From NCBI GenBank assembly GCA_034004025.1, contig JAVEXM010000001.1:4203-68202 (forward strand): a DNA stretch of 64,000 nucleotides. The letters are read 5' to 3'. The notes beneath the pieces are model-generated. The model was given only the letters and a program-made list of their open reading frames with translations. It did not search any database and was not told the origin of the DNA. The stretch is from Bacteroidales bacterium. GTDB taxonomy: Bacteria; Bacteroidota; Bacteroidia; Bacteroidales; VadinHA17. The position numbers were made by a program, and so were the translations under genes. Positions 3,198 to 51,934 of the stretch are shown here, one piece after another. Position 1 is the first letter of the stretch. Each line of letters opens with the position of its first letter.

Positions 3198-6100
3198 TTA
3201 GAATGAGAGGTTTATACCAAGAGTATAGGTCCTTGCCTGCGGTGCAGTGTAGAAATCATAACCCTGGATAATGTTGTTGTTCTGCGTTGACCTGCCGGCT
3301 CCCAGATAGTTTACTTCAGGGTCCCATCCCTTGTACTTTGTCAGCGTATAGAGGTTCTGAACGCCAACATAGACTCTTACTGAGGACATGTTAATCCGTG
3401 ACGTCAGACTCTTGGGCAGTGTATAACCCAGGTTCACGTTTCTGAACCTGACATATGAACCGTCTGAGAGATATCTGCTTGACTCCTTCGTGCCGTTTCC
3501 GTCGCCAAGGCGTGCCTGGGGCACATCTGTGATGTCGCCCGGCTGTTGCCATCTGTTCATCTGGTCCACCGTCTGGTTGTCAAACCAGTCGCCGTTGGCC
3601 GACTGGTAAACACCGGCACCGTTGTAGATTTCATTGCCGTATACAAAGCTGATAAGCACGTTGAGATCTATGCCTGCATATTCAAAGTAGTTGTTGAAAC
3701 CGCCTGTAAAGTCAGGGTTGGGCGATCCAACTATCTGCTTCTCGGCAATGTTGTAGTTGTTTGTTGTCTCATCGCTGTCGGCGCTGATATAGTAAAGGGC
3801 ATCACCGTTTTCCGGATCCACACCTGCATATTTAACGATATTAAATACACCTATAGGCTGACCTTCCATAACATAGTTGATCGAGTTGGGTGTGATCTCA
3901 GGTCCGTTTATGTCGATGATGGTGTTCTTGTTAAACGCCATGTTGAAGTCTGTTGTCCAGATAAATTCACCGGTAAGGTTGTTTGAATGGATTGAGAATT
4001 CCACACCCTTGTTCTCCAGTTCACCCACGTTGCTCCAGACCCCTTCAAAGCCCGATGTTGCGGGAAGGGTTCTGTAAAGGAGCAGGTCAGTGGTTTTCTT
4101 CTGGTACCAGTCGAATTCACCTGTGATCCTGTTGTTAAAAAAGCCAAAGTCAAGGCCGAGGTTAAGCTGAGCGGTATTTTCCCATCCCAGTTCCCTGCTC
4201 TGCAGCTGCGTTACCTCCAGTCCTGTCCGACCGGCATAATTGACACCTGAATAGAGTGCAAGGTGGGCATAATCGGGAATTCCCGAGTTACCTGTGATAC
4301 CATAGCTGGCTCTTGCCTTCAGGTAGCTCAGGACATCCCTTATTCCTGACATGAAGTCCTCCTGGGTGATTATCCACCCGGCCGAGCCGGCAGGGAAGAA
4401 TCCGAACCTGTTGTCAATGCCGAATCTCGACGAACCGTCAACACGGCCGCTGAGGGTAAAGAAGTACTTTTCATTGATCTTGTAGTTTGCGCGTGCAAAG
4501 TAAGAGAGATATGAGGTAGCTTCCTCCCATCCACCGTAGGTAGTTACCTCGGCAGCGTTGCTTATGTTGGTAAAATCATCAGTAGGAAATCCTTTGCCGA
4601 CGATATCTGAACCAATGCTGTTTGACTGCTGGTATGACATACCTCCCACGAGGTTGATATGGTGAACGCCAAGCGTCTTTATATAGGTCAGGTAGTTTTC
4701 CCAGTTATAGTTGATAACCCTGACAGAACGGTTCTGTGCTTCACCTGCCGGTCCGCCGGTGATTGTCTCCCTGCCCCAGAAATTCTTCTCCCTAAGGTCA
4801 TATATGTCAGTACCAAACTCGCTCTTGAAGGAAAGGTCCTTATAAATCTTGTAGGCAGCATAGATGTTTGCCAGCGACCTGAACGATGTCTGGTTGTTGG
4901 TTTCGTCCCTGAGGGATATAAGGCTGTTATAATAAATGGTCTCAGTATTCAGCTCGCCTGTCTCCGGATCATAGACAGGGGTGAGGGGCGACTGTGCCAC
5001 GAGCTGCAGCGGGGTAGCGAATGCGTTGTCGTTCTGCACGCGTTCCATCTCAGTGCGGATGACGTTCATCTGCATGCCGAAGCTGAACTTTTCGGTAGCC
5101 TGCTGGTCAAGGTTGAGCCTTGCGCTCATCTTGTTCATGTTGTTGCCAAGAAGGATGCCTTTGGTATCGTCATATGAGAGGCCCGCATAATACCGGGTTT
5201 TTTCAGTACCACCAGATCCGGATACGTTGATCCTGTTGAGCGATCCTTTCTGAAAAGCCTCCTTCTGCCAGTCGGTATCGTAACCGTCATCCCATGTTGG
5301 GCCAACATACATTTCCCATATATCCTCCTTCGGAAGCCAATCCCATACCAGTCCGCCAACGGAGACGTTCTCCATGGACTCATTGAAGAGCTCAAGGTAC
5401 TGGTCGGCATTCAGCCACTCAACCATCCGGCTGGGCTCACTGATACCGGTAGTATACTGTACATCAAATTTTGTGGCACCCGCCTTGCCTCTCTTGGTCT
5501 GGATGATTACCACACCGTTTGAGGCCCTTGAGCCGTAGATGGCTGCTGCTGATGCATCCTTCAGGATCTGTATTGACTCCACATCAGTCATTGCAAGGTC
5601 AGCCAGCGGGCTGGTAGGCTGGTTCCCTGAATTGGAGAGGTTTTCTGCTGTGATAGGCACACCATCAACTACATACAGGGGCTGGTTGTTTGCTGAGACA
5701 GATGATGACCCACGGATCCTCATCTTCACCGTCTCGCCCAATTTTCCGCTGGCCTGCTCTATGAATACACCCGAGGTCTTACCCTGGATAGCCGACTCAA
5801 AGCTGGCAGAAGGGATCTCGGCTATACCCTTTGTCTCAACCTTGGTGATAGCTCCGGTGAGTTCCCTCTTAATGGCCGAACCATAACCAACGACAATGAC
5901 CTCATCAAGGCCCACATCATCAAGTTCCATAGTTACATTGATAACATTTCCGGTGCCGACCACAATTTCCTGTGACTTCATCCCTACATACCTGAAAACA
6001 AGGGTATTGCCAGGTTCTGCTGTGATGGAGTACTTTCCGTCCATGTCTGTGGCTGTTCCAACAGAGGTACCCTGGACAAGGACTGTGGCACCGATGACGG

Positions 6101-6209
6101 GCAATCCGTCACCTTTGTCTGTAATTACCCCGGTAATGGTATTCTGCTGTCCGACAGCAGAAAATCCCAAAACACAGGAGATCAGACTCATTAAAAATAG
6201 TTTTCTCAT
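3198..6209 (-). CDS. SusC/RagA family TonB-linked outer membrane transporter
   Basis: 1003 aa. It has a signal peptide, an N-terminal carboxypeptidase-regulatory-like segment (ITGVITDKGDGLPVIGATVLVQGTSVGTATDMDGKYSI), a plug/barrel, and a C-terminal ...YTLGINLSF. Confidence 0.9.
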   Translation of the reverse strand: MRKLFLMSLISCVLGFSAVGQQNTITGVITDKGDGLPVIGATVLVQGTSVGTATDMDGKYSITAEPGNTLVFRYVGMKSQEIVVGTGNVINVTMELDDVGLDEVIVVGYGSAIKRELTGAITKVETKGIAEIPSASFESAIQGKTSGVFIEQASGKLGETVKMRIRGSSSVSANNQPLYVVDGVPITAENLSNSGNQPTSPLADLAMTDVESIQILKDASAAAIYGSRASNGVVIIQTKRGKAGATKFDVQYTTGISEPSRMVEWLNADQYLELFNESMENVSVGGLVWDWLPKEDIWEMYVGPTWDDGYDTDWQKEAFQKGSLNRINVSGSGGTEKTRYYAGLSYDDTKGILLGNNMNKMSARLNLDQQATEKFSFGMQMNVIRTEMERVQNDNAFATPLQLVAQSPLTPVYDPETGELNTETIYYNSLISLRDETNNQTSFRSLANIYAAYKIYKDLSFKSEFGTDIYDLREKNFWGRETITGGPAGEAQNRSVRVINYNWENYLTYIKTLGVHHINLVGGMSYQQSNSIGSDIVGKGFPTDDFTNISNAAEVTTYGGWEEATSYLSYFARANYKINEKYFFTLSGRVDGSSRFGIDNRFGFFPAGSAGWIITQEDFMSGIRDVLSYLKARASYGITGNSGIPDYAHLALYSGVNYAGRTGLEVTQLQSRELGWENTAQLNLGLDFGFFNNRITGEFDWYQKKTTDLLLYRTLPATSGFEGVWSNVGELENKGVEFSIHSNNLTGEFIWTTDFNMAFNKNTIIDINGPEITPNSINYVMEGQPIGVFNIVKYAGVDPENGDALYYISADSDETTNNYNIAEKQIVGSPNPDFTGGFNNYFEYAGIDLNVLISFVYGNEIYNGAGVYQSANGDWFDNQTVDQMNRWQQPGDITDVPQARLGDGNGTKESSRYLSDGSYVRFRNVNLGYTLPKSLTSRINMSSVRVYVGVQNLYTLTKYKGWDPEVNYLGAGRSTQNNNIIQGYDFYTAPQARTYTLGINLSF

Positions 6210-40863: not shown

Positions 40864-41403
40864 TCATTTCTGCCCCTCCTCAAACAATGTCCGGCACCTG
40901 TTGCAAAGACTGCTGCTCTTCTGGTCAATGTCTTCGACGTAAGTGCTTGAACGCATGACGCATTCAGGTGCATGACAGTGCAGAAGTCCGAATGTGTGGC
41001 CCAGCTCATGTATCACCTCCTTGATGGCCCGGGCAAGAAGAATATCTTCATTCTTATTCATACCGTAAAGCTCGTTCCTCAGGCGATATATTGAAGCAAT
41101 TGCGGTCTTTTGACCCAGGACGGCCTGGCCGAATATGTAAGTGAGAATGGGAATGTAGAGGTCAATCCTGAAGAGACATATCAGCCTGTCATATATGTTA
41201 TGGGTGCACCCGTTAAGATGATGAAGGAGCTTATTACCGTCATATTGCCGCCTTGCCGGATTGTAGTAGGGGTTGAGATCCAGGTGACACTCCTCGGTAC
41301 TGACCTGGTACCTGAACTCAGATTCAACTGCCAGTGCGATACTTCTCAGAAACTCCTTTTCAAAAGGGCCGTTAGAAAGCAATATTATTTTTTTCTCTTT
41401 CAA
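40864..41403 (-). CDS. archaemetzincin-type zinc metallopeptidase (M54-like)
   Basis: 179 aa. HELGHTFGLLHCHAPECVM-(16 aa)-CNRC fits the archaemetzincin signature HExxHxxGxxxCxxxxCxM...CxxC, with a spacer of 16 rather than 17. Confidence 0.85.
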   Translation of the reverse strand: MKEKKIILLSNGPFEKEFLRSIALAVESEFRYQVSTEECHLDLNPYYNPARRQYDGNKLLHHLNGCTHNIYDRLICLFRIDLYIPILTYIFGQAVLGQKTAIASIYRLRNELYGMNKNEDILLARAIKEVIHELGHTFGLLHCHAPECVMRSSTYVEDIDQKSSSLCNRCRTLFEEGQK

Positions 41404-41423: not shown

Positions 41424-42764
41424 CTAATCTTTCTGCTTCAGACCATACTTCCTGATTTTGTTGTAAAGAGTTACTCTGTCAACATTCAGTGCCCTGGCAG
41501 AGCGGGACACATTCCAGCCGTACTTTATCAGTATCTCCTCAATGTGTCTCTTCTCAAGCTCTTCGAGGCTTTCAACAGAGCTGCTGATAGCTTCCTTTCC
41601 CATCGGAAGGTCTTTCAGCTTTATCTCCTTTCCGTTACCGATAACTATCGCGCGTTCGATCATATTCTCCAGTTCCCGTACATTCCCGGGGAACTCGAAC
41701 TGTTCCAGGTGTTTAATGGCTGCCGGATCAATTGTTATCAGGTCACGGCTCATGGAGGTGCAGTATTTCTTAATGAAGTGACTGACAAGCAGCGGTATAT
41801 CTTCAGTTCTTTCACGCAATGGAGGGATGGTGATATTGACGACATTAAGCCTGTAGAAGAGATCCTCGCGGAAGTTGCCGTTTTCTACCATCCCTTTCAG
41901 GTCCCTGTTAGTAGCGCATATGACTCTGAAATCAGATGTGATCTCCCTGTTGCCTCCCACTCGTACGAAGCTTTTGGTTTCAAGGACTCTCAGCAGCTCG
42001 ATCTGCATCTTGGGTGAGATGGTGGCTATCTCATCAAGGAAGATAGTGCCGCCGTCTGCCATTTCGAATCTGCCTTTGCGGTTGAATGTGGCTCCGGTGA
42101 AGGCGCCTTTCTCATGGCCGAAGAGCTCACTTTCGAGGAGGCTCTCGGTCAGGGCGCCGCAATGAACCGTGATGAGGGGGAAGTACCTGCGCGCAGAGTT
42201 CGAATGAATCGCTCTTGCAACCAGCTCCTTGCCAGTACCGCTCTCACCTGTGATAATTACCGAGGAATTTGACTGGGCCACACTCTCAATCTGATCAAGC
42301 ACTTTTCGGATTGCATCACTCTGACCGATAAAATCATCTATGGCTTCAAGGTTGGTGACTCTGTTTTTCAGGGCCTCATTTTCCCCTCGGAGAGCTATCT
42401 GTGCCGCAGCATTTCGGATAAGGTGCGACAGGTCATCAGGATCAAAAGGCTTGGTGACATAATCAAAAGCACCGTCTTTAAGCGCCTGCACAGCAGTGTC
42501 AACCGATGCAAATGCAGTCATGATGATGACGATGGAATCCCTGTTCAGGGCTTTGATACGCCGATGCATCTCCATCCCGTCCATGCCCGGCATCTTTATG
42601 TCCGCAAGGATGATATCAAAATCCCTGACCTCAAGCAGCTGAAGCGCTTTCTTTGCGTTCTCGGCACACTCTACGCTGTACCCGTCCTCAATGAACCAGT
42701 TCAGCAATGAATCCCTGACGGATTCTTCATCGTCAACAATCAGAATGGAAATCTTTTCTGCCAT
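41424..42764 (-). CDS. sigma-54-dependent response regulator (NtrC family enhancer-binding protein)
   Basis: 446 aa. It has a REC domain (ILADIKMPGMDG), AAA+ GESGTGKE, the GAFTGA loop, and a C-terminal Fis-type HTH. Confidence 0.9.
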   Translation of the reverse strand: MAEKISILIVDDEESVRDSLLNWFIEDGYSVECAENAKKALQLLEVRDFDIILADIKMPGMDGMEMHRRIKALNRDSIVIIMTAFASVDTAVQALKDGAFDYVTKPFDPDDLSHLIRNAAAQIALRGENEALKNRVTNLEAIDDFIGQSDAIRKVLDQIESVAQSNSSVIITGESGTGKELVARAIHSNSARRYFPLITVHCGALTESLLESELFGHEKGAFTGATFNRKGRFEMADGGTIFLDEIATISPKMQIELLRVLETKSFVRVGGNREITSDFRVICATNRDLKGMVENGNFREDLFYRLNVVNITIPPLRERTEDIPLLVSHFIKKYCTSMSRDLITIDPAAIKHLEQFEFPGNVRELENMIERAIVIGNGKEIKLKDLPMGKEAISSSVESLEELEKRHIEEILIKYGWNVSRSARALNVDRVTLYNKIRKYGLKQKD

Positions 42765-42774
42765 ATCATCCGTC

Positions 42775-44445
42775 TTACACGTTTTTTATAGGAAAAACCA
42801 GTGATATTGTGGTTCCTCTGCCTACCACGGAATCCACTTCTATCTTACCGCCATGATTCTGCACTATCCCGTGAACGATTGGAAGTCCCAGCCCGATACC
42901 CCTGGCATCCCGCTTTGTCGAAAAGAAAGGTTCGAAAATGTGGGAGATATCTTCCGGAGCTATGCCCGAACCGTTATCCGATATCTCAAGTCTTACAGTA
43001 TCACTATCACTGTTTAGTGTCCGGAGAACAATTTCACCGTTATCGGTCACCGCTTCGGAGGCGTTTACCAGCAGGGCGATGCATGCCTGTTTTACCTGGT
43101 TGGGACTGCAGTAGATGAGGTCAGAACGGGCTGACAGATCTGTCAGGAAGGTGATGTTGGCGATCTTTATGTGATGCATCATCAGATCATGTGTGTCCTG
43201 GACTATCTCATTCAGGTGCCTCTCCTCGAAGTCATCCTGGTCTTTCTGCGAGAAATCGAGAAGCCCCTTGACTATATCACCGCAGCGTTTGGTCTCGGTC
43301 TCAATGAGCTTGAGCTTCCGGAGCATGTTATCCTTCTTTTCGGGGTCAATATCCTGACCGTCAAGCTGCTTGTAAACCAGTTTTGTATAAATAAGTATCC
43401 CCGACAATGGGTTGTTGATTTCGTGTGCCACTGATGCCGAGAGCTTACCGAGGGAGGCTATCCTTTCTACATTAATCAGTTCATTTTGCGCTTCCGAAAG
43501 CTCTTCGGACTTTTTCTGAACCTTGTACTCAAGTTGTTTTGACCAGTTCTCCAGCTCCTCAGTTGCGTTGTCAATGTTGTCGAGCATGTTATTGAATGCC
43601 AGTGAGACCATCTTCATGTCGTCAAGCAGGTCAGGCCTTATATCCAGCCTGGTCTTCAGTTTCCCGGCTGAAACTGCTTCACTCGCCGTAATGAGTCTGT
43701 TCAGCGGATCTTTGATCTTCTTTCTGGTAAAGAGAATTAACATCAGGACAATGATGGCTGTAATTATCAGTGCCATGAGGAGAAACTCAACAGAGGATTT
43801 CTGCAGGGCATTGTCGAGATCCTTGAGAGGCATCCTGATAATCAGTGAGCCGAGCACCTCATCGGTTTCACTGTGTGCGTGGCATGATGCAGTGTAGCAT
43901 GACATCTCATTCAGGATCGGCCTCCTTATAAGCAGGTGCCTCTGCCCCGGCCGGTTGGGATTCATGCTGCAATCGCTCTTCTCATCAATTATCATGTAGC
44001 TCCTCTCTCTCTTGGCAAACATCTCGTTAAGATCGGAGTGACATGCAATACAGTCGGGATTACTGTGATATTCTGTTTCAGAGGTGAAGGAAGAATATGC
44101 CAGGTTGTCATTCTGGTCATAGAGATTGACATCGTCAATGCCCGGCATGGTGTTGATGATATCGAGTGTTCCGTGGAGCGTGCTCTTGTCGTTCTCAAGC
44201 ATTGATGTGTACAGCGCCCCCTCCACTATTGCACCTATGTTATTTCCGTTCTGTTTGAGCACAGTGTTGAAATAATTAACATAGACCGTCCTGAAGATTA
44301 TATTGAACGAAAGAAAAAGGACAATGGCAGCGAATGCAATTATTCCTACAACCCTGCTGTAGATCGTTGATTTGAGTCTGAAGTAACTGATTATGCGGGT
44401 CAGCAATGATCTGCGAATGGGGCTGTTGTCACCTGTGGTTGCCAT
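42775..44445 (-). CDS. sensor histidine kinase with a Cys/His-motif periplasmic domain and HAMP
   Basis: 556 aa. Two TM helices (about aa 31-53 and 221-239) flank a loop containing CIACH (aa 132-136) and CYTASCH (aa 183-189). It has the H-box SVAHEINNPLSG and the N/G boxes LVNASEAV, DNGSGI and GIGLGLPIV. Confidence 0.85.
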   Translation of the reverse strand: MATTGDNSPIRRSLLTRIISYFRLKSTIYSRVVGIIAFAAIVLFLSFNIIFRTVYVNYFNTVLKQNGNNIGAIVEGALYTSMLENDKSTLHGTLDIINTMPGIDDVNLYDQNDNLAYSSFTSETEYHSNPDCIACHSDLNEMFAKRERSYMIIDEKSDCSMNPNRPGQRHLLIRRPILNEMSCYTASCHAHSETDEVLGSLIIRMPLKDLDNALQKSSVEFLLMALIITAIIVLMLILFTRKKIKDPLNRLITASEAVSAGKLKTRLDIRPDLLDDMKMVSLAFNNMLDNIDNATEELENWSKQLEYKVQKKSEELSEAQNELINVERIASLGKLSASVAHEINNPLSGILIYTKLVYKQLDGQDIDPEKKDNMLRKLKLIETETKRCGDIVKGLLDFSQKDQDDFEERHLNEIVQDTHDLMMHHIKIANITFLTDLSARSDLIYCSPNQVKQACIALLVNASEAVTDNGEIVLRTLNSDSDTVRLEISDNGSGIAPEDISHIFEPFFSTKRDARGIGLGLPIVHGIVQNHGGKIEVDSVVGRGTTISLVFPIKNV

Positions 44446-44581
44446 TGCGGTTGTTTTTAGCGGTGTTACATCTCTTTGCAGTTATGCACCTCACTTCCAG
44501 GGGGAATTGCAAAGAGTGTATAAATCCTCTACAATGTACAAAAAAATCTTCAGGTGACCATTACTGACCTCACGACAGGTA

Positions 44582-46243
44582 TTATCTGAGGAACTTCACC
44601 TGGAACTCTTCCCAGACCTCAGGTCCGAATTCCTCAAGAAGTCCATCCTTAAACTCACCTCCATCCTGTAAAACCACATGAGCATATCTTAAATCGCCGG
44701 TGCCTGGCATTACTGAGAGAAAATCCCTTATTCGAGCAAATTCCTCTTTCAGGTAATCGATATATTTTCCGGCTATGACCATCAGGCGTGATTCCTTCTC
44801 CCAGTTGTCAGCTTCGATGGCATAGATCCAGCCCTCATCATACGGTGAGCTGTTCATTATCCCGGCATCTGCTGCCAGCCTCTCATTCCTCATGACTATT
44901 CTGCCACTTACCGGAGATTTCAGATCAAGCTGTTTGCCGTTCTGAATCACAGACACCACATGCTCTCCCTTGCGTACCTTTTCTCCGGGGTCCTTCATCC
45001 TCAGGCGGGTTACAGACCCGGTGAGATGTTGCAGGAAGTCGTCAATGCCGATCCTCACCAGGCCATCTTTTTCCATGAAGGCCCATGTATGACCTTTATC
45101 AAACAATATTCCGGCAGGTGTGATCAAAGACTTCAGGCTGAATGCCACTGATGGCTTTTGCATGGGTGAGACGATCTCTTCTGCACCTGACCTGGTTAAC
45201 CGGTATATTGCGTATGCTGCTGATGTAACTGTCACAATCACAGCAAGGATCCAGAGCCAGGCCCTGAATATCGGACGACTGTCTCTGCCAGCCATTACCA
45301 TTGCCTGGTCAGTAACCAGTGCATCCCTTCTGTTCATGCCTTCCCCACGGGCAAGGGCGGTAAAGCCTGTTCCTGCCAGTATGGGCTGTCCGTCGACCAG
45401 TACATATTTTATCAGATCGGAGGGTGCTCCCGGGGCCGGATTTGCGGCTGAGGCAGCATAGATATTATTGCACAGGGCTTTCGGATACTTGCCAATATAG
45501 ACCCCTCTGCTGAAACTGTTGTAATCGGCATAGAACTGTTCAAAATAGTCCGACCTTGCATTATTGTTCACATCCACGGGTATTATTTGTATGCCATCAA
45601 CGAATCCCTGGCCTGTCGGATCGGTTATATCTGCCAGGCGGCAGAATGCTATTGACTGCGGGTTACTGTTGAGGGCAGCCGGAATATCTGCAGAGGAGAG
45701 CGAGGTTGTGGCTCCGACAAGAGCCGGATCTGTTTGAGTGAACCTTGAGAGAGCACTGACCACTGCTATGTCATCAGGTATTAAAATGTTGACGGGGGAG
45801 GGGTTCTCATTATTGAGCAGCTCACCCCAGGTGGGAGTACCCTCAGCAGTCAGAATGCCGACAAACCTACCGGGAGAGATTCCGCTTGCCGTGATGCCGG
45901 AAAGGAAAGGATTCGTTGCACTCATAACCGGAACAATCACATCGCGCCCGACAACTATTTTCCACGCAGCTGTCTTTTCGGCGTTCCCCGATGAATTGCC
46001 GGTGATGAACATAATGTCCGCGCCTGCAAACTCCTCTGACGGGAGAACGGTCACCTCTGCATCGGGGTACTTTGCCCGAAATCCTTCGACCCACATCTTT
46101 GTCAGGGTCTCAGTTTCCGGGGAAGTTGCAACGCTGACCAGGTTTACAGGATTCTGAGCAGGTTCACTTTTGCTCTTCTGGCCGGCCATGATGCCGAAGT
46201 GAAGCATAATCAGGCATATCGTCAAAGGAATAATTCTTTTCAT
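44582..46243 (-). CDS. signal peptide + periplasmic PBP-like (PstS/phosphate-binding-type) domain + single TM helix + cytoplasmic GcvH-like domain fusion protein
   Basis: 553 aa with an N-terminal signal and a TM helix at about aa 325-347 (IFRAWLWILAVIVTVTSAAYAIY). The C-terminal part (GHTWAFMEKDGLVRIGIDDFLQHLTGSV...KSPVSGRIV...SSPYDEGWIYAIE) tracks the glycine-cleavage H-protein pattern. The PBP assignment is weaker and rests on resemblance only. Confidence 0.6.
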   Translation of the reverse strand: MKRIIPLTICLIMLHFGIMAGQKSKSEPAQNPVNLVSVATSPETETLTKMWVEGFRAKYPDAEVTVLPSEEFAGADIMFITGNSSGNAEKTAAWKIVVGRDVIVPVMSATNPFLSGITASGISPGRFVGILTAEGTPTWGELLNNENPSPVNILIPDDIAVVSALSRFTQTDPALVGATTSLSSADIPAALNSNPQSIAFCRLADITDPTGQGFVDGIQIIPVDVNNNARSDYFEQFYADYNSFSRGVYIGKYPKALCNNIYAASAANPAPGAPSDLIKYVLVDGQPILAGTGFTALARGEGMNRRDALVTDQAMVMAGRDSRPIFRAWLWILAVIVTVTSAAYAIYRLTRSGAEEIVSPMQKPSVAFSLKSLITPAGILFDKGHTWAFMEKDGLVRIGIDDFLQHLTGSVTRLRMKDPGEKVRKGEHVVSVIQNGKQLDLKSPVSGRIVMRNERLAADAGIMNSSPYDEGWIYAIEADNWEKESRLMVIAGKYIDYLKEEFARIRDFLSVMPGTGDLRYAHVVLQDGGEFKDGLLEEFGPEVWEEFQVKFLR

Positions 46244-46587
46244 ATCATTGATTGTTGATGTATTACACTATTCTATAACGCCTGTCCAATATGCATGCCA
46301 AACATTATAATGAAATGATAATGAGGGATATAGAATGTAATATGATATCTTCAGGCCGACGGTAAGTGTTGAAATAATATACAATTAGTATTAATGATTA
46401 ATATAAATAACAGAGAATAAACAAGTTAGAACTATGTGTAAAATATATACATGTGTTTAATATTACAACACTCTTAAAAATCCCAGAACGTAAGTAAATT
46501 ATATTCAATCATATAGAATGTCAACAAAGATCAGCAGCAATTTCTGATCATTTTTGATTCGGGAGTAGGTTGCGTTCCTGCTTTTTT

Positions 46588-46707: not shown

Positions 46708-48228
46708 ATGGAGAGGCCTGACAATCTGATAATTGTGATTTTCGGAGGCAGGGGTGACCTGGCTATGAGGAAGATCGTGCCGGCGTTGTATGCTCTTCAT
46801 GTTGAGAATCTGATGCCTGAAAAGTATGCGGTGGTGGCGACGGGCAGGACCGGGGTTACTGATGAGGCATATCGCGGGGAGGTGAAAAAGAGCCTGGCCG
46901 CAGTAACGGAAGAAAAGTCCGGAACGAACACAGATGAGTTTGTTGCTTTATTTCATTACATCGATTTTGATACATCCGTTGCCGGTGACTACAACAAGCT
47001 TCCTGATTTTCTTGATATGATAAGGCAAAAGTTCACCCTTGGCGGAAACATACTTTTTTACCTCTCTGTTCCTCCTGATCTGTACGGTGTGATACCCCGC
47101 AATCTGGCCCTGCAGGGTCTGAACAATGAGGGTGACGGCTGGAAGAGGATGATCATTGAGAAGCCGTTCGGTTACGACTACAGGAGTGCGGAAAAACTTA
47201 ACAGCACTCTTCTTGAGACTTGGAACGAAAGTCAGATATTCCGCATTGATCATTACCTGGGCAAGGAGACGGTACAGAATATCCTTGTGACAAGATTCTC
47301 AAACGGCATCTTCGAACCCCTGTGGAACCGTAATTATGTACATCATGTAGAGATCACCTCCTCAGAGACACTGGGTGTTGAGATGAGGGGATCCTACTAT
47401 GAAGATTCCGGTGCTTTGCGTGACATGGTCCAGAACCATCTGCTGCATCTGGCGGGTTTCGTTGCCATGGAGCCGCCCTCGTCAATAGATTCAACCTCAA
47501 TCAGGAATGAACTTGTGAAGGTTTTTGAGTCGCTCAGGCCGATCAGCAGTGAGGAGGTTCACAGGAACGCCATACGCGGACAGTATACCGGGGCTCATGT
47601 CAGGGGGGAATGGCTGAAGGGATACCGTGAAGAGGTGAATGTGGACCCGGGCTCGATGACTGAGACATTTGCCGCACTTAAATTTTACATTGATAACTGG
47701 AGGTGGGGCGGGGTGCCCTTTTATATAAGAACAGGCAAGAGACTGCCGACACGTGTCACCGAGGCAGTGATACACTTCAAGCCGACACCTCACTACCTCT
47801 TCTCGGGTCAGAGCTTTTGCGATGGGTGTAACCAGCTCATCATAAGGATACAGCCTGATGAGGGTATCCTGTTAAAGTTCGGCATGAAAATCCCCGGTGC
47901 CGGGTTCAAGGTAAAGAACGTAAATATGGACTTTCACTACTCTGACCTTGCCGCCGAAAGGATACCCGAAGCGTATGAGAGACTTCTGTACGACTGCATG
48001 AAGGGTGATTCCACCCTCTATACCAGGTCAGACGCCGTGCTGGCTGCATGGAAGTTCCTTGACCCTGTGCTTGAAGCCTGGAAAAACGACGACTCAATTC
48101 CTGTTTACGGGTATCCTGCGGGGACCTGGGGTCCGGAGAAGGCTGATGACCTTATAGAGGAGCCCGAACTTACATGGAGATACCCATGTAAAAATCTTGC
48201 CGAAGATGGTGTTTATTGTGAATTATAA
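46708..48228 (+). CDS. zwf: glucose-6-phosphate dehydrogenase
   Basis: 506 aa with IFGGRGDLAMRK (NADP site) and the active-site RIDHYLGKE. Confidence 0.9.
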   Translation: MERPDNLIIVIFGGRGDLAMRKIVPALYALHVENLMPEKYAVVATGRTGVTDEAYRGEVKKSLAAVTEEKSGTNTDEFVALFHYIDFDTSVAGDYNKLPDFLDMIRQKFTLGGNILFYLSVPPDLYGVIPRNLALQGLNNEGDGWKRMIIEKPFGYDYRSAEKLNSTLLETWNESQIFRIDHYLGKETVQNILVTRFSNGIFEPLWNRNYVHHVEITSSETLGVEMRGSYYEDSGALRDMVQNHLLHLAGFVAMEPPSSIDSTSIRNELVKVFESLRPISSEEVHRNAIRGQYTGAHVRGEWLKGYREEVNVDPGSMTETFAALKFYIDNWRWGGVPFYIRTGKRLPTRVTEAVIHFKPTPHYLFSGQSFCDGCNQLIIRIQPDEGILLKFGMKIPGAGFKVKNVNMDFHYSDLAAERIPEAYERLLYDCMKGDSTLYTRSDAVLAAWKFLDPVLEAWKNDDSIPVYGYPAGTWGPEKADDLIEEPELTWRYPCKNLAEDGVYCEL

Positions 48229-48257
48229 TTAGTTTTATGTCCTGATTGTTGCAGAAC

Positions 48258-48989
48258 ATGTCATACTCAGTCAGAGTGTTCCCCGACCGCGAAGCCCTGG
48301 CGCAAAGTTTCGCTGCAATGCTGATCAAGGATCTTGACAGGATTGAACCCGACCATTACTACACCGTTGCGCTCTCAGGCGGTTCAACGCCGGAGTTTAT
48401 CTTCAAATATATCTCGGACAATTATGCTGACAGGATAAGCTGGGGTAAGATGCTGGTTTTCTGGGGCGATGAGCGATGCGTCGGCCCGGACGACAGTGAG
48501 AGCAACTTCCGTATGGCTTATGACAGCCTGTTGCAGAACGTGCCTATCCCCGATGCCAATATTCTCAGGATCAGGGGAGAGGATGATCCGGATGCAGAAG
48601 CCAAACAGTATTCTGAACTTGTCAGCTCGATGATCCCCTTCTTCAACGGGACTCCGCAGTTTGACCTGATGCTGCTGGGTGTCGGAGATGACGGTCACAC
48701 TGCATCGGTCTTCCCTGACAGGCCTGATCTCTTTGCTACAGCACGTCTCTTCGATGTGGCGGTTCATCCCGGCACCGGCCTCAGGAGGATCACGGCCACC
48801 GGACGGCTTATCAACAACTCATCCAAAGTATACTATATAGTTACAGGCAAGGGCAAGGCCTCCATCGTTTCGGAGATAGTGGAAAAGAAGCCCGGGTCCG
48901 AGAGGTATCCGGCATCATGGGTCAAGCCGGGTTCGGGTCAGCTGTTGTGGATGCTGGACGTTGAGGCTGCTTCGTTGCTGAAGAAATAG
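48258..48989 (+). CDS. pgl: 6-phosphogluconolactonase
   Basis: LSGGSTP and LLGVGDDGHTASVFP motifs. I prefer the ATG at 48258 over the TTG at 48246. Confidence 0.8.
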   Translation: MSYSVRVFPDREALAQSFAAMLIKDLDRIEPDHYYTVALSGGSTPEFIFKYISDNYADRISWGKMLVFWGDERCVGPDDSESNFRMAYDSLLQNVPIPDANILRIRGEDDPDAEAKQYSELVSSMIPFFNGTPQFDLMLLGVGDDGHTASVFPDRPDLFATARLFDVAVHPGTGLRRITATGRLINNSSKVYYIVTGKGKASIVSEIVEKKPGSERYPASWVKPGSGQLLWMLDVEAASLLKK

Positions 48990-49019
48990 TCACACTACAA
49001 TCAAACTAACCAACTCTAT

Positions 49020-50159
49020 ATGATCGCAGGTATTCTTAAAGAGACAGGGAAGGAAAACAGGGTCGCACTCCTTCCCGGTGAAGCGGCAGCATTGAAAAAG
49101 CTCGGACTTGAAATTATGGTTGAGCATGGAGCCGGTGAGAGAGCATTTGCCCCGGACAGTGAATACCAGGCTGCCGGCGTCTCACCCACATCGAGGAATG
49201 AGATTCTCTCCAAAGCAGATCTCCTCCTGTGCATCAATCCTCCGGTGGCTGAGAATGTCGGCAACTTCAGGGCAGGACAGATTCTCTGTACTATCCTTGA
49301 CCCGGTTGAAAACAGGGAGTGGCTGGAAAAGATCAGGCAGAGGGAAGTTACCCTTCTTGCCCTTGACCTTGTGCCCAGGATCACCAGGGCACAGTCGATG
49401 GACATCCTCTCTTCAATGGCTACGGTATCAGGTTACAAGGCGGTGCTGGAGGCTGCCTCCCTGCTGCCCCGGTTTTTCCCGATGTTCATGACGGCCGCCG
49501 GAACCATCAAGCCTGCGCGAATGCTGATACTGGGTGCCGGCGTTGCCGGACTCCAGGCTATAGCCATAGCCCGTAAGCTGGGGGCTGTGGTTGAGGTTTT
49601 TGATGTAAGGTCGGCTGTGAAGGAGGAGGTGAAGAGCCTGGGTGGCAAATTTGTCGAGGTAGAGGGAGCGGTTGAGGATGCTTCCGCCGGCGGCTATGCC
49701 GTGGAACAGACGGAGGAATTCAAACGGCGCCAGCAGGAGCTCATCCAGCAACGCGCTGCCGCCGCTGACGTGATCATCGCCACAGCACAGATACCCGGCA
49801 GAAGGGCCCCGGTACTGATCCTGAAGGAGACAGTGGCCAGAATGAAGCCGGGGTCAGTGATCATTGACCTCGCAGCCTCGTCAGGTGGCAACTGTGAGCT
49901 TACAGAAAACGGCGTTGCCGTTAATGCCAACGGGGTCACAATAATAGGAAAATCAAACTATCCCTCGGAGATGCCGTCCGATGCCAGCCGGATGTTCGGC
50001 AACAACATAATCAATCTCCTCAAAATCATGGTTGACAGGGAGGGGAATATCGTGCCGGATATGGCAGACGAGGTCATCTTCGGTACCACGGCGGTGCACG
50101 GCGGAGAGTATGTCAGTCCAAGGGTAAAACAGATGCTTGATATAAAACAAACTGCATAA
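49020..50159 (+). CDS. pntAA: NAD(P) transhydrogenase subunit alpha, part 1 (dI)
   Basis: 379 aa, alanine-dehydrogenase/PNT-like, with the Rossmann motif ILGAGVAGLQAIA. Confidence 0.85.
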   Translation: MIAGILKETGKENRVALLPGEAAALKKLGLEIMVEHGAGERAFAPDSEYQAAGVSPTSRNEILSKADLLLCINPPVAENVGNFRAGQILCTILDPVENREWLEKIRQREVTLLALDLVPRITRAQSMDILSSMATVSGYKAVLEAASLLPRFFPMFMTAAGTIKPARMLILGAGVAGLQAIAIARKLGAVVEVFDVRSAVKEEVKSLGGKFVEVEGAVEDASAGGYAVEQTEEFKRRQQELIQQRAAAADVIIATAQIPGRRAPVLILKETVARMKPGSVIIDLAASSGGNCELTENGVAVNANGVTIIGKSNYPSEMPSDASRMFGNNIINLLKIMVDREGNIVPDMADEVIFGTTAVHGGEYVSPRVKQMLDIKQTA

Positions 50160-50461
50160 TGGAAGGATTTCTTGAATTTTTTATGGCGAACAGGGGCATC
50201 ATCTACATGGTGATTCTCTCAATATTCCTGGGCATAGAGGTTATAAGCCATGTGCCTGCAATACTCCACACCCCGCTGATGTCAGGTGCAAACGCCATCC
50301 ACGGGGTCGTAATTATCGGAGCTATTATTGTCATGGGCCATGCAGAGACCACCGGGGCAATGATCCTCGGTTTTCTCGCCGTTGTGCTCGGCACGCTGAA
50401 CGTTGTTGGCGGTTTTGTCGTCACCGACAGGATGCTTGAGATGTTTAAAAAGAAAAAATAA
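50159..50461 (+). CDS. pntAB: NAD(P) transhydrogenase subunit alpha, part 2 (membrane)
   Basis: 100 aa with three hydrophobic helices. Its ATG overlaps the pntAA stop by 1 nt. Confidence 0.8.
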   Translation: MEGFLEFFMANRGIIYMVILSIFLGIEVISHVPAILHTPLMSGANAIHGVVIIGAIIVMGHAETTGAMILGFLAVVLGTLNVVGGFVVTDRMLEMFKKKK

Positions 50462-50497
50462 CCCTGATTTATCCCGGTCGCTGCAAATAGTCGCACT

Positions 50498-51934
50498 ATG
50501 AATGATGTTTCCCAGTTTTCAGCAGGTGTCTCGGTGCTTGAGATAACCTATATAATTGCCTCTGTCTTTTTCATCCTCGGATTGAAGATGCTCAGTCATC
50601 CCCTCACGGCAAGGAGGGGCAATATTATTGCTGCCATCGGCATGATCCTGGCCATTGCTGCCACCATACTGTTCCACCAGAAAGATGGGGCACCGATTGG
50701 CAATATAGGATGGATCCTGGCCGCCATGATTATCGGTACCGCCATCGGATGGATCATAGCCGTAAAGGTGAAGATGACAGCGATGCCTCAGCTGGTCTCT
50801 TTCTTTAACGGTATGGGAGGCGCTGCCGCTGCCCTCATATCAATGATGGAGTTCCCGCACATCAGCAGCGAACTTATTGCACGAACAGGCATGGCTAACG
50901 GTCATGTCCTGGCTATACTTCTGGGCCTGGTGATTGGGTCGGTCTCATGGTCCGGCAGCATGATCGCCTTTGGTAAGCTTGACGGCTGGATAGGTGATCT
51001 GAGGGTCAAGGCAATGAAATATGTCAATGTTACGATCCTGGTTTTTATAATCGCCTTTATTGCTTACATAATGACCCGTGACGTACAGGCCTCCTCGGAG
51101 CTGACTCCCCTGATACTGATTCTCTTTGCCGTTGCTGTTGCCTACGGGGTGCTCTTCGTGATGCCCATCGGCGGTGCTGACATGCCGGTGGTGATATCGC
51201 TGCTCAACAGCTTCACCGGCGTAGCGGCAGCTATGGGCGGATTCCTCTACAGTAACCAGGCGATGCTTACCGGCGGGATACTTGTCGGATCAGCAGGAAC
51301 CATACTCACAATACTGATGTGCCGCGCCATGAACCGCTCACTGCTCAATGTCATCGTCGGTGTCTTCGGTGGCGGCGGAGCGGCCGCAGCAGCAGAGGGT
51401 GGCACCGTAAAGGAGATAACCGTGTCAGACGCCGCCGTGCTGCTAAGCTATTCAAAGAAGGTGGTGATAGTGCCGGGCTACGGACTGGCAGTGGCACAGG
51501 CACAGCATATATGCCATGAGCTGGACAAGCTTCTGGATGAGAAAGGGGTGGAGGTGAAGTATGCAATTCACCCTGTGGCAGGACGTATGCCCGGCCATAT
51601 GAACGTACTGATGGCTGAGGCCGATGTTCCCTATGAACAGCTGGTTGAGAGCGACGAGGTCAATCCCGACCTTCCCAACACCGACGTGATCGTGGTCATC
51701 GGTGCCAATGACGTTGTTAACCCGGCCGCCGAGGATGATCCTTCGAGCCCGATCTTCGGTATGCCCATCGTAAGGGCACGTGACGCCAGAAACATCATCG
51801 TCATGAAGCGGGGAATGGGTAAGGGCTACGCTGCCATAGAGAACATGCTCTTTTTCAACGACAAGACCCGAATGCTCTTCGGTGATGCCAAGAGCACACT
51901 GCAGGCACTGGTTACGGAGGTAAAGGCGTTGTAG
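50498..51934 (+). CDS. pntB: NAD(P) transhydrogenase subunit beta
   Basis: 478 aa with a polytopic N-terminal part and a C-terminal dIII domain (VPGYGLAVAQAQH...GANDVVNPAA). Confidence 0.9.
   Translation: MNDVSQFSAGVSVLEITYIIASVFFILGLKMLSHPLTARRGNIIAAIGMILAIAATILFHQKDGAPIGNIGWILAAMIIGTAIGWIIAVKVKMTAMPQLVSFFNGMGGAAAALISMMEFPHISSELIARTGMANGHVLAILLGLVIGSVSWSGSMIAFGKLDGWIGDLRVKAMKYVNVTILVFIIAFIAYIMTRDVQASSELTPLILILFAVAVAYGVLFVMPIGGADMPVVISLLNSFTGVAAAMGGFLYSNQAMLTGGILVGSAGTILTILMCRAMNRSLLNVIVGVFGGGGAAAAAEGGTVKEITVSDAAVLLSYSKKVVIVPGYGLAVAQAQHICHELDKLLDEKGVEVKYAIHPVAGRMPGHMNVLMAEADVPYEQLVESDEVNPDLPNTDVIVVIGANDVVNPAAEDDPSSPIFGMPIVRARDARNIIVMKRGMGKGYAAIENMLFFNDKTRMLFGDAKSTLQALVTEVKAL

What the first reader, a model, noticed from the sequence alone, without database searches (positions are those of the whole stretch)
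44798..45112. Cytoplasmic GcvH-like domain fused behind a periplasmic binding-protein fold, apparently lacking the canonical lipoyl-lysine register
Residues 378-482 or so (GHTWAFMEKDGLVRIGIDDFLQHLTGSVTRLRMKDPGEKVRKGEHVVSVIQNGKQLDLKSPVSGRIV...SSPYDEGWIYAIE) follow the H-protein pattern: HxW, G(I/V)TD(F/Y)AQ-like, PVSG, PY..GW. Aligned back from PVSG, however, the only nearby Lys (K437) sits one position off the ESVK lipoylation site, and the ESV context is replaced by QNG. The domain may therefore be a non-lipoylated protein-interaction module, or it may carry a different modification. A membrane-tethered H-protein-like domain linked to a solute-binding fold is not a described architecture that I know of.
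Basis: partly seen in the sequence, partly recalled or inferred. Interest (0 to 1): 0.6.

Follow-up and report, generated by a model that had tools for sequence, protein, structure and literature searches.

The report
Membrane-tethered H-protein-like domain without lipoyl lysine
A large, undescribed family of Bacteroidia membrane proteins joins a periplasmic phosphate-binding-protein fold to a cytoplasmic copy of the glycine-cleavage H-protein fold whose lipoic-acid attachment lysine is displaced by one residue, and it appears to act as a partner of a haem-containing sensor kinase rather than as a metabolic enzyme.

Summary
Window 44582-46243 (-) encodes a 553-aa protein made of a signal peptide, a PstS-like periplasmic domain, one TM helix, a GCV_H domain (Pfam E 2.9e-23) and a family-specific helical tail.

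The modelled H-like domain superposes on E. coli H-protein at about 1.0-1.3 Å, TM 0.94. MAFFT, profile-profile, HMM-HMM alignment and the model all put Gly436 at the lipoyl-lysine position and Lys437 one residue later, just after a tight Asn-Gly turn. That Lys becomes Arg, or Asn in a paralogue, in some intact operons. Its role as an obligatory lipoyl site is therefore unlikely.

The family is large: more than 140 clusters at 50% identity and 340 species genomes, all Bacteroidia. Its gene is always first in an operon behind a conserved sigma54-type promoter element. The usual order is A, HmcB-like FeS protein, HmcC/NrfD-like membrane protein, a second TM-GcvH-like paralogue, a histidine kinase with conserved periplasmic CxxCH and Cx4CH motifs, a sigma54 response regulator and an M54 peptidase. 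The window carries the reduced form, A-HK-RR-M54.

Best reading (inferred): a bitopic co-sensor/accessory subunit of a redox-sensing two-component system, with the H-fold reused as a non-lipoylated interaction module. I found no published description. It is a new variant of a known fold in a new context.

The parts
46286..46300 (-). sigma54-type -24/-12 promoter-like element (TGGCATGCATATTGG), 43 nt upstream of the ATG of gene A
   Evidence: TGGCAY-N5-TTG lies upstream of the orthologous gene in 71 of 75 loci. Of 49 strict matches in 1.17 Mb of loci plus window (about 9 expected), 38 lie just upstream of gene A. The -12 part is TTG[G/A], not the canonical TTGC, so the sigma54 assignment is inferred.
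44582..46243 (-). Gene A: 553-aa signal peptide, PstS-like domain, TM helix, GcvH-like domain and helical tail
   Evidence: ORF. Exact and near-identical proteins exist in public MAGs (P0001 100%). The architecture is kept down to 36% identity.
46181..46243 (-). N-terminal signal peptide or signal anchor (residues 1-21)
   Evidence: Hydrophobic N-terminus MKRIIPLTICLIMLHFGIMAG. Modelled as helix 4-21. Cleavage was not tested.
45299..46150 (-). Periplasmic class II binding-protein domain of the PstS type (residues about 32-315), divergent
   Evidence: Foldseek: 4jwo E 1.8e-13, and 4gd5, 4q8r, 1twy and 4n13 are all phosphate-binding proteins at 12-16% identity. Pfam PBP_like_2 is only 13-15 bits against a cut-off of 27. 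In a weak alignment to 4q8r, the GSTS and SGT phosphate-binding motifs are replaced by ATSP and AVV.
45539..45574 (-). EF-hand-like loop DVNNNARSDYFE (D224-E235) inside the periplasmic domain
   Evidence: D224, N226, N228 and E235 are invariant and D232 nearly so in 27 diverse homologues; distant members read DRNGNGLIDYNE. Metal binding is inferred from the pattern only.
45203..45262 (-). Single transmembrane helix (residues 328-347, AWLWILAVIVTVTSAAYAIY)
   Evidence: Sequence. Modelled as helix 325-350.
44774..45118 (-). Cytoplasmic GcvH-like (barrel-sandwich hybrid) domain, residues 376-490
   Evidence: Pfam GCV_H E 2.9e-23. pLDDT 83-92. Foldseek to H-proteins: rmsd 1.0-1.4 Å, TMt 0.92-0.95.
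44918..44962 (-). Hairpin HVVSVIQNGKQLDLK (residues 428-442). Gly436 occupies the lipoyl-lysine column; Lys437 (codon 44933-44935) is one position later
   Evidence: Q434, G436 and K437 are conserved. Lys is replaced by Arg or Asn in some orthologues and paralogues.
44585..44773 (-). Family-specific C-terminal tail (residues 491-553) with invariant LQDGGE and GPEVWEEFQ-type motifs
   Evidence: Invariant in the A family and shared with the 236-aa paralogue. No Pfam match even at E 10. Modelled as three helices, with low confidence in the last 40 residues.
44446..44581 (.). Short intergenic gap. In 59 of 75 related loci, hmcB-like, hmcC-like and the second TM-GcvH-like gene sit at this position
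   Evidence: tblastn finds no hmcB or hmcC homologue anywhere in the window.
42775..44445 (-). Sensor histidine kinase (two TM helices, periplasmic domain, HAMP-HisKA-HATPase)
   Evidence: Pfam. Follows gene A in every locus with enough downstream sequence.
43879..44052 (-). Periplasmic CIACH (CxxCH) and CYTASCH (Cx4CH) haem-c attachment motifs of the kinase
   Evidence: CxxCH is present in 70/70 and Cx4CH in 69/70 orthologous kinases. Sub-threshold Pfam hits to Cytochrome_C7 and c3_2 span both motifs. Haem binding is inferred.
41424..42764 (-). NtrC-type sigma54-dependent response regulator (REC, AAA+, Fis-type HTH)
   Evidence: Pfam Sigma54_activat E 7e-70 and Response_reg E 8.5e-32. 75-98% identical across the loci.
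40864..41403 (-). M54 (archaemetzincin-like) metallopeptidase, last gene of the conserved operon
   Evidence: Pfam Peptidase_M54 E 1.8e-25. Conserved at this position in the loci.

Best explanation
Gene A encodes a bitopic accessory or co-sensor subunit of a sigma54-type two-component system that senses periplasmic or respiratory redox state. Shown: a signal peptide and a divergent PstS-fold domain precede one TM helix. A domain with the full H-protein fold and a conserved helical tail follow it. The gene is always the first of an operon that also encodes a kinase with two conserved periplasmic haem-c motifs, a sigma54 activator and an M54 peptidase. A conserved -24/-12-type element precedes it. 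In about four fifths of related loci an HmcB-like Tat-exported FeS protein, an HmcC/NrfD-like quinone-interacting membrane protein and a second TM-GcvH-like paralogue lie between A and the kinase. Inferred: the H-fold domain is not a lipoyl carrier. Gly436 sits at the lipoyl position, and the conserved Gln434/Lys437 pair flanking the tight Asn-Gly turn, together with the tail, forms a protein-contact surface on the cytoplasmic side. The most likely partner is the kinase's HAMP/DHp region, or the paralogue's equivalent domain. The periplasmic domain contacts the kinase's haem domain or binds a ligand other than phosphate. A thereby modulates kinase output. The phosphorylated regulator then activates the operon's own sigma54 promoter. 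The paralogue is lost together with hmcBC while A persists with the kinase. A therefore probably works with the kinase, and the paralogue with the HmcBC electron wire.
For: Fold and register. Lys not essential: Arg in 3 of 74 A orthologues, all in short operons lacking the paralogue, and Arg or Asn in 8 of 54 paralogues; Arg also in 2 of 140 cluster representatives and in P0096, P0106, P0113 and P0240. The position 3 residues before the Lys is Q/R/H/K, not Glu. A Lys placed one residue from the turn tip of a lipoyl domain is not lipoylated (Wallis and Perham 1994, as summarised in PMC6270654). Genuine lipoate carriers such as LbpA keep a strictly conserved Lys (PMC6067878). Operon: 59 of 75 loci show the long form or truncated stretches consistent with it, and 16 of 75 are A-HK-RR-M54; no locus with sufficient sequence lacks the kinase. 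Independent gene calls agree. HmcB E 1e-99 and HmcC E 6e-124. Haem motifs in 70/70 and 69/70 kinases. Promoter element in 71 of 75 loci. The paralogue has a positively charged stretch after its TM helix, which places its GcvH-like domain in the cytoplasm. No lipoate ligase, gcvT or gcvP lies in the operon.
Against: No interaction, topology, haem or modification data exist, so the mechanism is inferred from architecture and synteny. Lys437 is still 96-99% conserved in the A family, more than a generic contact residue usually is. The retained H-protein fold (about 1 Å) and the HxW, GxDD, SPxSG and PYxxGW motifs could mean the arm-binding cavity still has a function. The -12 element is TTG[G/A] rather than TTGC. 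The AlphaFold tail is low-confidence. The loss of phosphate-binding motifs rests on a weak alignment (E 0.49).
Confidence: 0.5

Rival explanations
1. The GcvH-like domain is a true acyl carrier. Lys437 is lipoylated, or carries another acyl or redox-active group, through a non-canonical or dedicated ligase, and the arm reports or relays redox state between the membrane redox module and the kinase.
For: Lys437 is Lys in 116/119 and 138/140 A-family sequences. The H-protein fold is kept at about 1 Å rmsd. Hdr-like systems use GcvH-like lipoate carriers (PMC6067878). The operon is associated with a Hmc-type module.
Against: The Lys is one residue off the tip in every profile alignment and in the model. 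A lipoyl domain with Lys at +1 or -1 is not lipoylated. Arg or Asn replaces the Lys in intact operons, including three with no other GcvH-like protein. The canonical Glu at -3 is absent. No ligase, HdrD-like or CCG-domain gene lies in the operon.
Confidence: 0.12
2. A and its paralogue are structural subunits of an HmcBC-type quinone-linked respiratory complex. The H-fold would be a cytoplasmic cap, like the barrel-sandwich domain of RnfC/NqrA, and not a signalling component. In the window lineage, which lost hmcBC, gene A would be a relic or serve another complex.
For: 59 of 75 loci place A directly before hmcB-hmcC. The paralogue gives a weak RnfC_N barrel-sandwich hit, E 0.002. NrfD-type subunits normally carry accessory subunits (PMC8076601).
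Against: A is retained under purifying selection (60-90% identity among short-form loci) next to the kinase in 16 loci that lack hmcBC, whereas the paralogue is always lost with hmcBC. The operon has no catalytic or cytochrome subunit other than the kinase.
Confidence: 0.2
3. The protein is a phosphate (or other oxyanion) receptor of the PstS type that signals phosphate status.
For: The closest solved folds of the N-terminal domain are phosphate-binding proteins. JGI annotations call some members 'ABC-type phosphate transport system substrate-binding protein'.
Against: Sequence identity to PstS proteins is 12-16% and PBP_like_2 is below threshold. The GS(S/T)T and SGT anion-binding motifs are not kept in the available alignment. 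No pstCAB or phoU genes lie nearby.
Confidence: 0.05
4. It is an ordinary glycine-cleavage H protein, as some database records name the family.
For: Pfam GCV_H match. NCBI and JGI label the 236-aa paralogue 'glycine cleavage system protein H'.
Against: It scores below both curated GcvH cut-offs, has Gly at the lipoyl position, is membrane-anchored and fused, and has no gcvT or gcvP context.
Confidence: 0.02

Closest known systems
Glycine cleavage system H protein (GcvH; Pfam PF01597, TIGR00527)
   Same: Same fold (rmsd 1.0-1.4 Å, TM 0.92-0.95, about 30% identity). The HxW, G-I-[TD]-D, SP-x-SG and PY-x-GW motifs are kept, and the hairpin has the same length.
   Different: Gly replaces the lipoyl Lys, and the hairpin reads I-Q-N-G-K instead of E-S-V-K-A. 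The protein is tethered to the membrane, fused to a periplasmic domain and extended by a 60-residue tail. It scores below the equivalog cut-offs and has no gcvT/gcvP neighbours.
LbpA lipoate-binding proteins of the sHdr sulfur-oxidation system, and GcvH-L of the SirTM/macrodomain operon (PDB 5a35)
   Same: These are GcvH-fold proteins recruited outside glycine cleavage, LbpA in a redox context. 5a35 is a structural match to the first, low-confidence C-terminal model (E 1e-5).
   Different: Both keep a strictly conserved, lipoylated Lys at the canonical position, and LbpA has two conserved Cys (PMC6067878). The window domain has no Cys and a shifted, replaceable Lys. No hdr, ligase, sirtuin or macrodomain genes are nearby.
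Periplasmic binding-protein co-sensors of histidine kinases (TorT-TorS, LuxP-LuxQ, ChvE-VirA); from my own knowledge
   Same: A class II binding-protein fold is encoded with, and presumably acts on, a membrane sensor kinase.
   Different: Those co-sensors are soluble periplasmic proteins. This one is anchored by a TM helix and carries a cytoplasmic H-fold domain and tail, so it could contact the kinase on both sides of the membrane. No ligand is known.
Hmc/Nhc/HybAB-type NrfC-NrfD membrane redox modules (HmcB, HmcC)
   Same: Sister loci encode HmcB-like (E 1e-99) and HmcC-like (E 6e-124) proteins between gene A and the kinase.
   Different: There is no multihaem cytochrome HmcA, no HmcDEF and no hydrogenase. 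The only haem-motif protein in the operon is the kinase. The window itself lacks these genes.
Barrel-sandwich hybrid domains used as non-cofactor structural modules (RnfC/NqrA N-terminal domain, membrane fusion proteins); from my own knowledge plus a weak hit
   Same: The lipoyl/biotinyl-type fold is used without a cofactor at a membrane complex. The paralogue gives RnfC_N E 0.002, and some family members carry precomputed PF25917/PF25919 hits.
   Different: The window domain is a full H-protein fold rather than the minimal hybrid barrel, and its sequence similarity is clearly to GcvH.

Membership tests
Canonical GcvH (glycine cleavage H protein) | Scores above the curated cut-off of the equivalog/subfamily models | tested here: not met
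   TIGR00527 61.5 bits vs 115.85; NF002270 79.7 vs 117.
Canonical GcvH (glycine cleavage H protein) | H-protein fold (Pfam GCV_H domain) | tested here: met
   PF01597 82.5 bits vs 22.2. Foldseek rmsd 1.0-1.4 Å, TMt 0.92-0.95 to solved H-proteins.
Canonical GcvH (glycine cleavage H protein) | Lys at the tip of the hairpin in the E-S-V-K context (lipoyl attachment site) | tested here: not met
   Gly436 is in that column by MAFFT, mafft-profile and hhalign. The turn is N435-G436 in the model. Lys437 lies at +1 and is replaceable by Arg or Asn.
Canonical GcvH (glycine cleavage H protein) | Covalent lipoylation | not testable with these tools
   Needs mass spectrometry or a lipoylation assay.
Canonical GcvH (glycine cleavage H protein) | Small soluble protein acting with GcvT/GcvP | tested here: not met
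   553-aa membrane protein. The neighbours are a kinase, a regulator and a peptidase. The rest of the genome could not be examined.
LbpA (sHdr-associated lipoate-binding protein) | Strictly conserved lipoyl Lys, two conserved Cys, hdr-like gene neighbourhood (PMC6067878) | tested here: not met
   Shifted and variable Lys. No Cys in residues 376-553. No hdr genes in 75 loci.
PstS-family phosphate-binding protein | Class II binding-protein fold of the PstS type | tested here: met
   Foldseek 4jwo E 1.8e-13, with 4gd5, 4q8r, 1twy and 4n13.
PstS-family phosphate-binding protein | Passes the Pfam PBP_like_2 threshold and keeps the phosphate-binding Ser/Thr/Gly motifs | tested here: not met
   13-15 bits vs 27. 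GSTS is replaced by ATSP and SGT by AVV in the only available alignment, which is weak at E 0.49.
PstS-family phosphate-binding protein | Encoded with pstCAB/phoU | tested here: not met
   Not present in the window neighbourhood or in L081.
Accessory/co-sensor protein of a two-component system | Strict co-occurrence and co-orientation with a sensor kinase and response regulator | tested here: met
   All loci with enough downstream sequence carry HK-RR after gene A. A shared sigma54-type element precedes gene A in 71 of 75 loci.
Accessory/co-sensor protein of a two-component system | Physical interaction with, and modulation of, the kinase | not testable with these tools
   No complex prediction or experiment was available.

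The most novel reading that the evidence does not exclude
The membrane-tethered, lipoate-free GcvH-like domains (gene A and its 236-aa paralogue) are the cytoplasmic coupling elements of a previously unrecognised respiratory-state sensor. An HmcBC-type quinone-linked electron wire would poise the two haems of a histidine kinase, and the H-fold proteins would transmit or gate that signal to sigma54-dependent transcription. This would be a new type of multi-component redox-sensing system, widespread in anaerobic Bacteroidia, and a new non-cofactor use of the H-protein fold.
Probability: 0.3. Interest if true: 0.75.

Novelty: new variant of a known kind. Interest (0 to 1): 0.6.

Why it matters
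The H-protein fold is known almost only as a lipoyl carrier, in glycine cleavage, as a lipoyl relay, in sHdr LbpA and in GcvH-L. This family has hundreds of sequence clusters in which the fold is kept at about 1 Å but the attachment lysine is displaced and replaceable, and the domain is wired into a signalling operon.

If the model holds, it gives three things. First, a clean natural example of a cofactor-carrier fold turned into an interaction module. Second, an explanation for many database records mislabelled 'glycine cleavage system protein H'. Third, an entry point to how anaerobic Bacteroidia sense redox or respiratory state through a haem-containing kinase and sigma54, a poorly studied area.

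Tried and rejected
1. Pairwise phmmer to E. coli and Thermus GcvH aligns K437 with the lipoyl Lys by inserting two compensating gaps. I rejected this because the ungapped register is chosen by pairwise alignment to the pea and T. maritima proteins, by MAFFT, by profile-profile and HMM-HMM alignment, and by the model.
2. The first AlphaFold run on the C-terminal part, with 17 sequences, gave mean pLDDT 64. It was used only for a first Foldseek pass and then superseded by the 122-sequence full-length model.
3. The afdb50 fold library was unavailable.
4. Six literature searches found no paper on this architecture or operon, only background on LbpA, NrfD-like subunits, sigma54 regulons and lipoyl-domain mutagenesis.
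5. The tail (residues 480-553) and the paralogue's tail have no Pfam match even at E 10.
6. The kinase's periplasmic domain has no significant relative of solved structure.
7. The sigma70/terminator consensus scan was uninformative for this phylum, and no convincing terminator lies between gene A and the kinase.
8. The strict canonical sigma54 consensus with 2 mismatches is not enriched in the window as a whole (65 matches vs 64 expected). Only the comparative analysis revealed the conserved site.
9. I looked for hmcB, hmcC or a second GcvH-like gene elsewhere in the window and found none.
10. Repeats upstream of the promoter were not followed up as possible enhancer sites.
Full report
**The observation**

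The flagged stretch 44798-45112 (-) is residues 378-482 of a 553-aa ORF at 44582-46243 (-).
- It matches Pfam GCV_H over residues 381-500 (82.5 bits, E 2.9e-23).
- It stays well below the curated cut-offs of the true GcvH models (TIGR00527 61.5 vs 115.85; NF002270 79.7 vs 117).
- All significant PDB sequence matches are H-proteins (E about 1e-14).

A full-length AlphaFold model built on 122 homologues has pLDDT 83-92 over the H-like domain. That domain superposes on E. coli, Thermus and bovine H-proteins at rmsd 1.0-1.4 Å, target TM 0.92-0.95, over 122-128 alignment columns for targets of 125-127 residues. The H-protein-like domain is real and far beyond chance.

**Register of the lysine**

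The distance from the conserved Gly before the hairpin to the Pro of SPVSG is 18 residues, as in E. coli GcvH. MAFFT L-INS-i on a combined set, mafft-profile, and hhalign of an 81-sequence family alignment against four solved H-proteins (106 columns, no gap, probability 99.9%) all align V-I-Q-N-G-K-Q-L-D with A-E-S-V-K-A-A-S-D.

This puts Gly436 on the lipoyl lysine and Lys437 on the following alanine. Only pairwise phmmer against the E. coli and Thermus proteins forces K onto K, through two compensating one-residue gaps. The pairwise alignments to the pea and T. maritima proteins are ungapped.

The model shows strand 428-434, a two-residue Asn435-Gly436 turn and strand 437-442. Lys437 is therefore the first strand residue after the tip, paired with Gln434. 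The one inaccuracy is that K442 is also nearby, though it is not conserved.

**Is the lysine an attachment site?**

Conservation of Lys437:
- K in 116 of 119 close A-family proteins.
- K in 138 of 140 representatives of 50%-identity clusters.
- The exceptions are Arg.

Across one genome per species:
- The A protein has Arg in 3 of 74 loci (L028, L038, L040). All three are short-form operons with no second GcvH-like gene, so those systems have no lysine at the hairpin at all.
- The paralogue has Arg in 5 and Asn in 3 of 54.

Other points against lipoylation:
- The residue three before the Lys, a conserved Glu in H-proteins, is Q/R/H/K.
- In a lipoyl domain, a Lys introduced one position after the native one (A43K) was not lipoylated. 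Moving the Lys one position before (D41K/K42A) abolished lipoylation (Wallis and Perham 1994, as summarised in PMC6270654).
- Genuine non-glycine-cleavage lipoate carriers (LbpA) keep a strictly conserved Lys (PMC6067878).

Together these make obligatory lipoylation unlikely, though not excluded. The high conservation of Gln434, Gly436 and Lys437 points to a recognition surface at the hairpin. That last step is inference.

**The rest of the protein**

- Residues 1-21 are a signal peptide or anchor.
- Residues about 32-315 fold like PstS-type phosphate-binding proteins (Foldseek 4jwo E 1.8e-13, and 4gd5, 4q8r, 1twy, 4n13; 12-16% identity).
- This domain misses the Pfam PBP_like_2 threshold. In the only, weak, alignment it lacks the GSTS and SGT anion-binding motifs.
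- It contains an invariant D-x-N-x-N-G-x-x-D-x-x-E loop resembling an EF-hand.
- Residues 328-347 form the single TM helix.
- After the H-like domain comes a 60-residue tail with invariant LQDGGE and GPEVWEEFQ-type motifs. It has no Pfam match and is modelled as helices with low confidence.
- A signal peptide plus one TM helix puts the H-like domain in the cytoplasm. In the paralogue, the positively charged stretch after the TM helix agrees with this. Topology is inferred.

**Family and context**

The architecture is conserved down to 36% identity:
- 867 or more hits in the first search.
- 400 clusters at E ≤ 1e-30 in the exhaustive search, with nearly all of the top 150 about 560 aa long and the domain at the same position.
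- 340 species genomes, all Bacteroidia MAGs.

In 75 loci with a full-length A gene:
- 59 have A followed by an HmcB-like Tat FeS protein, and those with enough sequence continue with an HmcC/NrfD-like membrane protein, a 236-aa TM-GcvH-like paralogue, a histidine kinase, a sigma54 response regulator and an M54 peptidase.
- HmcB-like scores NCBIfam E 1e-99 and HmcC-like E 6e-124.
- The paralogue is 35-40% identical to A's C-terminal part and has the same QNGK hairpin and tail.
- 16 loci, including the window's lineage, have A-HK-RR-M54.
- Independent gene calls on a 1.46-Mb contig show the same seven genes.
- The window has no hmcB or hmcC homologue.

The kinase's periplasmic domain carries CxxCH in 70/70 and Cx4CH in 69/70 orthologues. 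Sub-threshold Cytochrome_C7/c3 hits span both motifs. It is the only haem-motif protein in the operon.

**Promoter**

A TGGCAY-N5-TTG element lies upstream of gene A in 71 of 75 loci. With the stricter TTG[GC] form, 38 of 49 matches in 1.17 Mb (about 9 expected) are at that position. The window copy is TGGCATGCATATTGG at 46286-46300 (-), 43 nt before the ATG.

This is the sigma54 -24/-12 pattern (consensus as in PMC12316311), except that the -12 GC is usually GG or GA. With a sigma54 activator in the operon, positive autoregulation is the simplest reading. This is inferred.

**Mechanism proposed**

The best-supported model has four parts.
- A is a bitopic co-sensor or accessory subunit of the kinase.
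- Its periplasmic domain contacts the kinase's haem domain or binds a non-phosphate ligand.
- Its cytoplasmic H-fold and tail contact the kinase's cytoplasmic part, or the paralogue.
- The H-fold serves as a non-lipoylated interaction module.

In long-form operons, HmcBC would link the menaquinone pool to the kinase haems, and the paralogue would belong to that wire. The reason is that the paralogue is always lost together with hmcBC, whereas A stays with the kinase.

Rivals:
- A non-canonical acylation of Lys437.
- A purely structural role in an Hmc-type complex.
- Phosphate sensing.
- An ordinary GcvH. Only this last one is clearly refuted.

**Comparison and novelty**

The domain has the H-protein fold, but it is not a member of GcvH proper. 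It fails the curated cut-offs, the lipoyl-lysine position and the genomic context. It is not LbpA or GcvH-L either.

No curated family covers the full-length protein. Six literature searches found no description. Public records call it hypothetical or, misleadingly, 'glycine cleavage system H protein'.

I rate it a new variant of a known kind, of moderate to high interest. The anatomy is solid and the family large. The function is inferred from synteny and conservation only.

Noticed in passing
window 43879-44052 (-), within the kinase gene 42775-44445: The sensor kinase has a periplasmic CxxCH and a Cx4CH motif, conserved in 70/70 and 69/70 orthologues with exactly five conserved Cys. This suggests a dihaem c-type sensor domain with no curated family and no solved relative.
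   Followed up: partly
L005 9039-11885; L047 8469-11491; L081 11749-14593; absent at window 44446-44581: Most related operons carry HmcB-like and HmcC/NrfD-like genes plus a 236-aa TM-GcvH-like paralogue between gene A and the kinase. The window's lineage has lost all three together. There is no HmcA-type cytochrome or catalytic subunit.
   Followed up: yes
window 45539-45574 (-): An invariant D-x-N-x-N-G-x-x-D-x-x-E loop (EF-hand-like) lies inside the PstS-like periplasmic domain. Distant homologues read DRNGNGLIDYNE, close to a textbook calcium loop.
   Followed up: partly
window 40864-41403 (-): An M54 (archaemetzincin-type) metallopeptidase is the conserved last gene of the operon in essentially all loci. 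Its link to the two-component system is unexplained.
   Followed up: no
window 46708-51934 (+); L081 4315-9561: A divergently transcribed zwf-pgl-pntA-pntB cluster (NADPH-generating enzymes and transhydrogenase) adjoins the operon in 37 of 80 loci. No sigma54-type element was seen on its side of the intergenic region in the window.
   Followed up: partly
L020, L035, L067 (downstream of the paralogue gene): Three loci carry two tandem copies of the haem-motif kinase before the response regulator.
   Followed up: no
window 5474-5488 (+): The only perfect canonical sigma54 consensus in the window (TGGCACCCGCCTTGC) lies inside, and antisense to, the 1003-aa ORF 3198-6209 (-). It is probably a chance match.
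   Followed up: no
public records of P0121, P0230 and many JGI entries: The 236-aa membrane-anchored paralogue is annotated 'glycine cleavage system protein H' in NCBI and JGI records. This is probably a systematic misannotation, given the shifted, replaceable Lys and the operon context.
   Followed up: partly
window 46308-46338 and 46491-46521; 46365-46383 / 46454-46472: A 31-nt direct repeat (74% identity) and a 19-nt inverted repeat lie in the AT-rich region upstream of the promoter element. They are candidate activator-binding sites.
   Followed up: no
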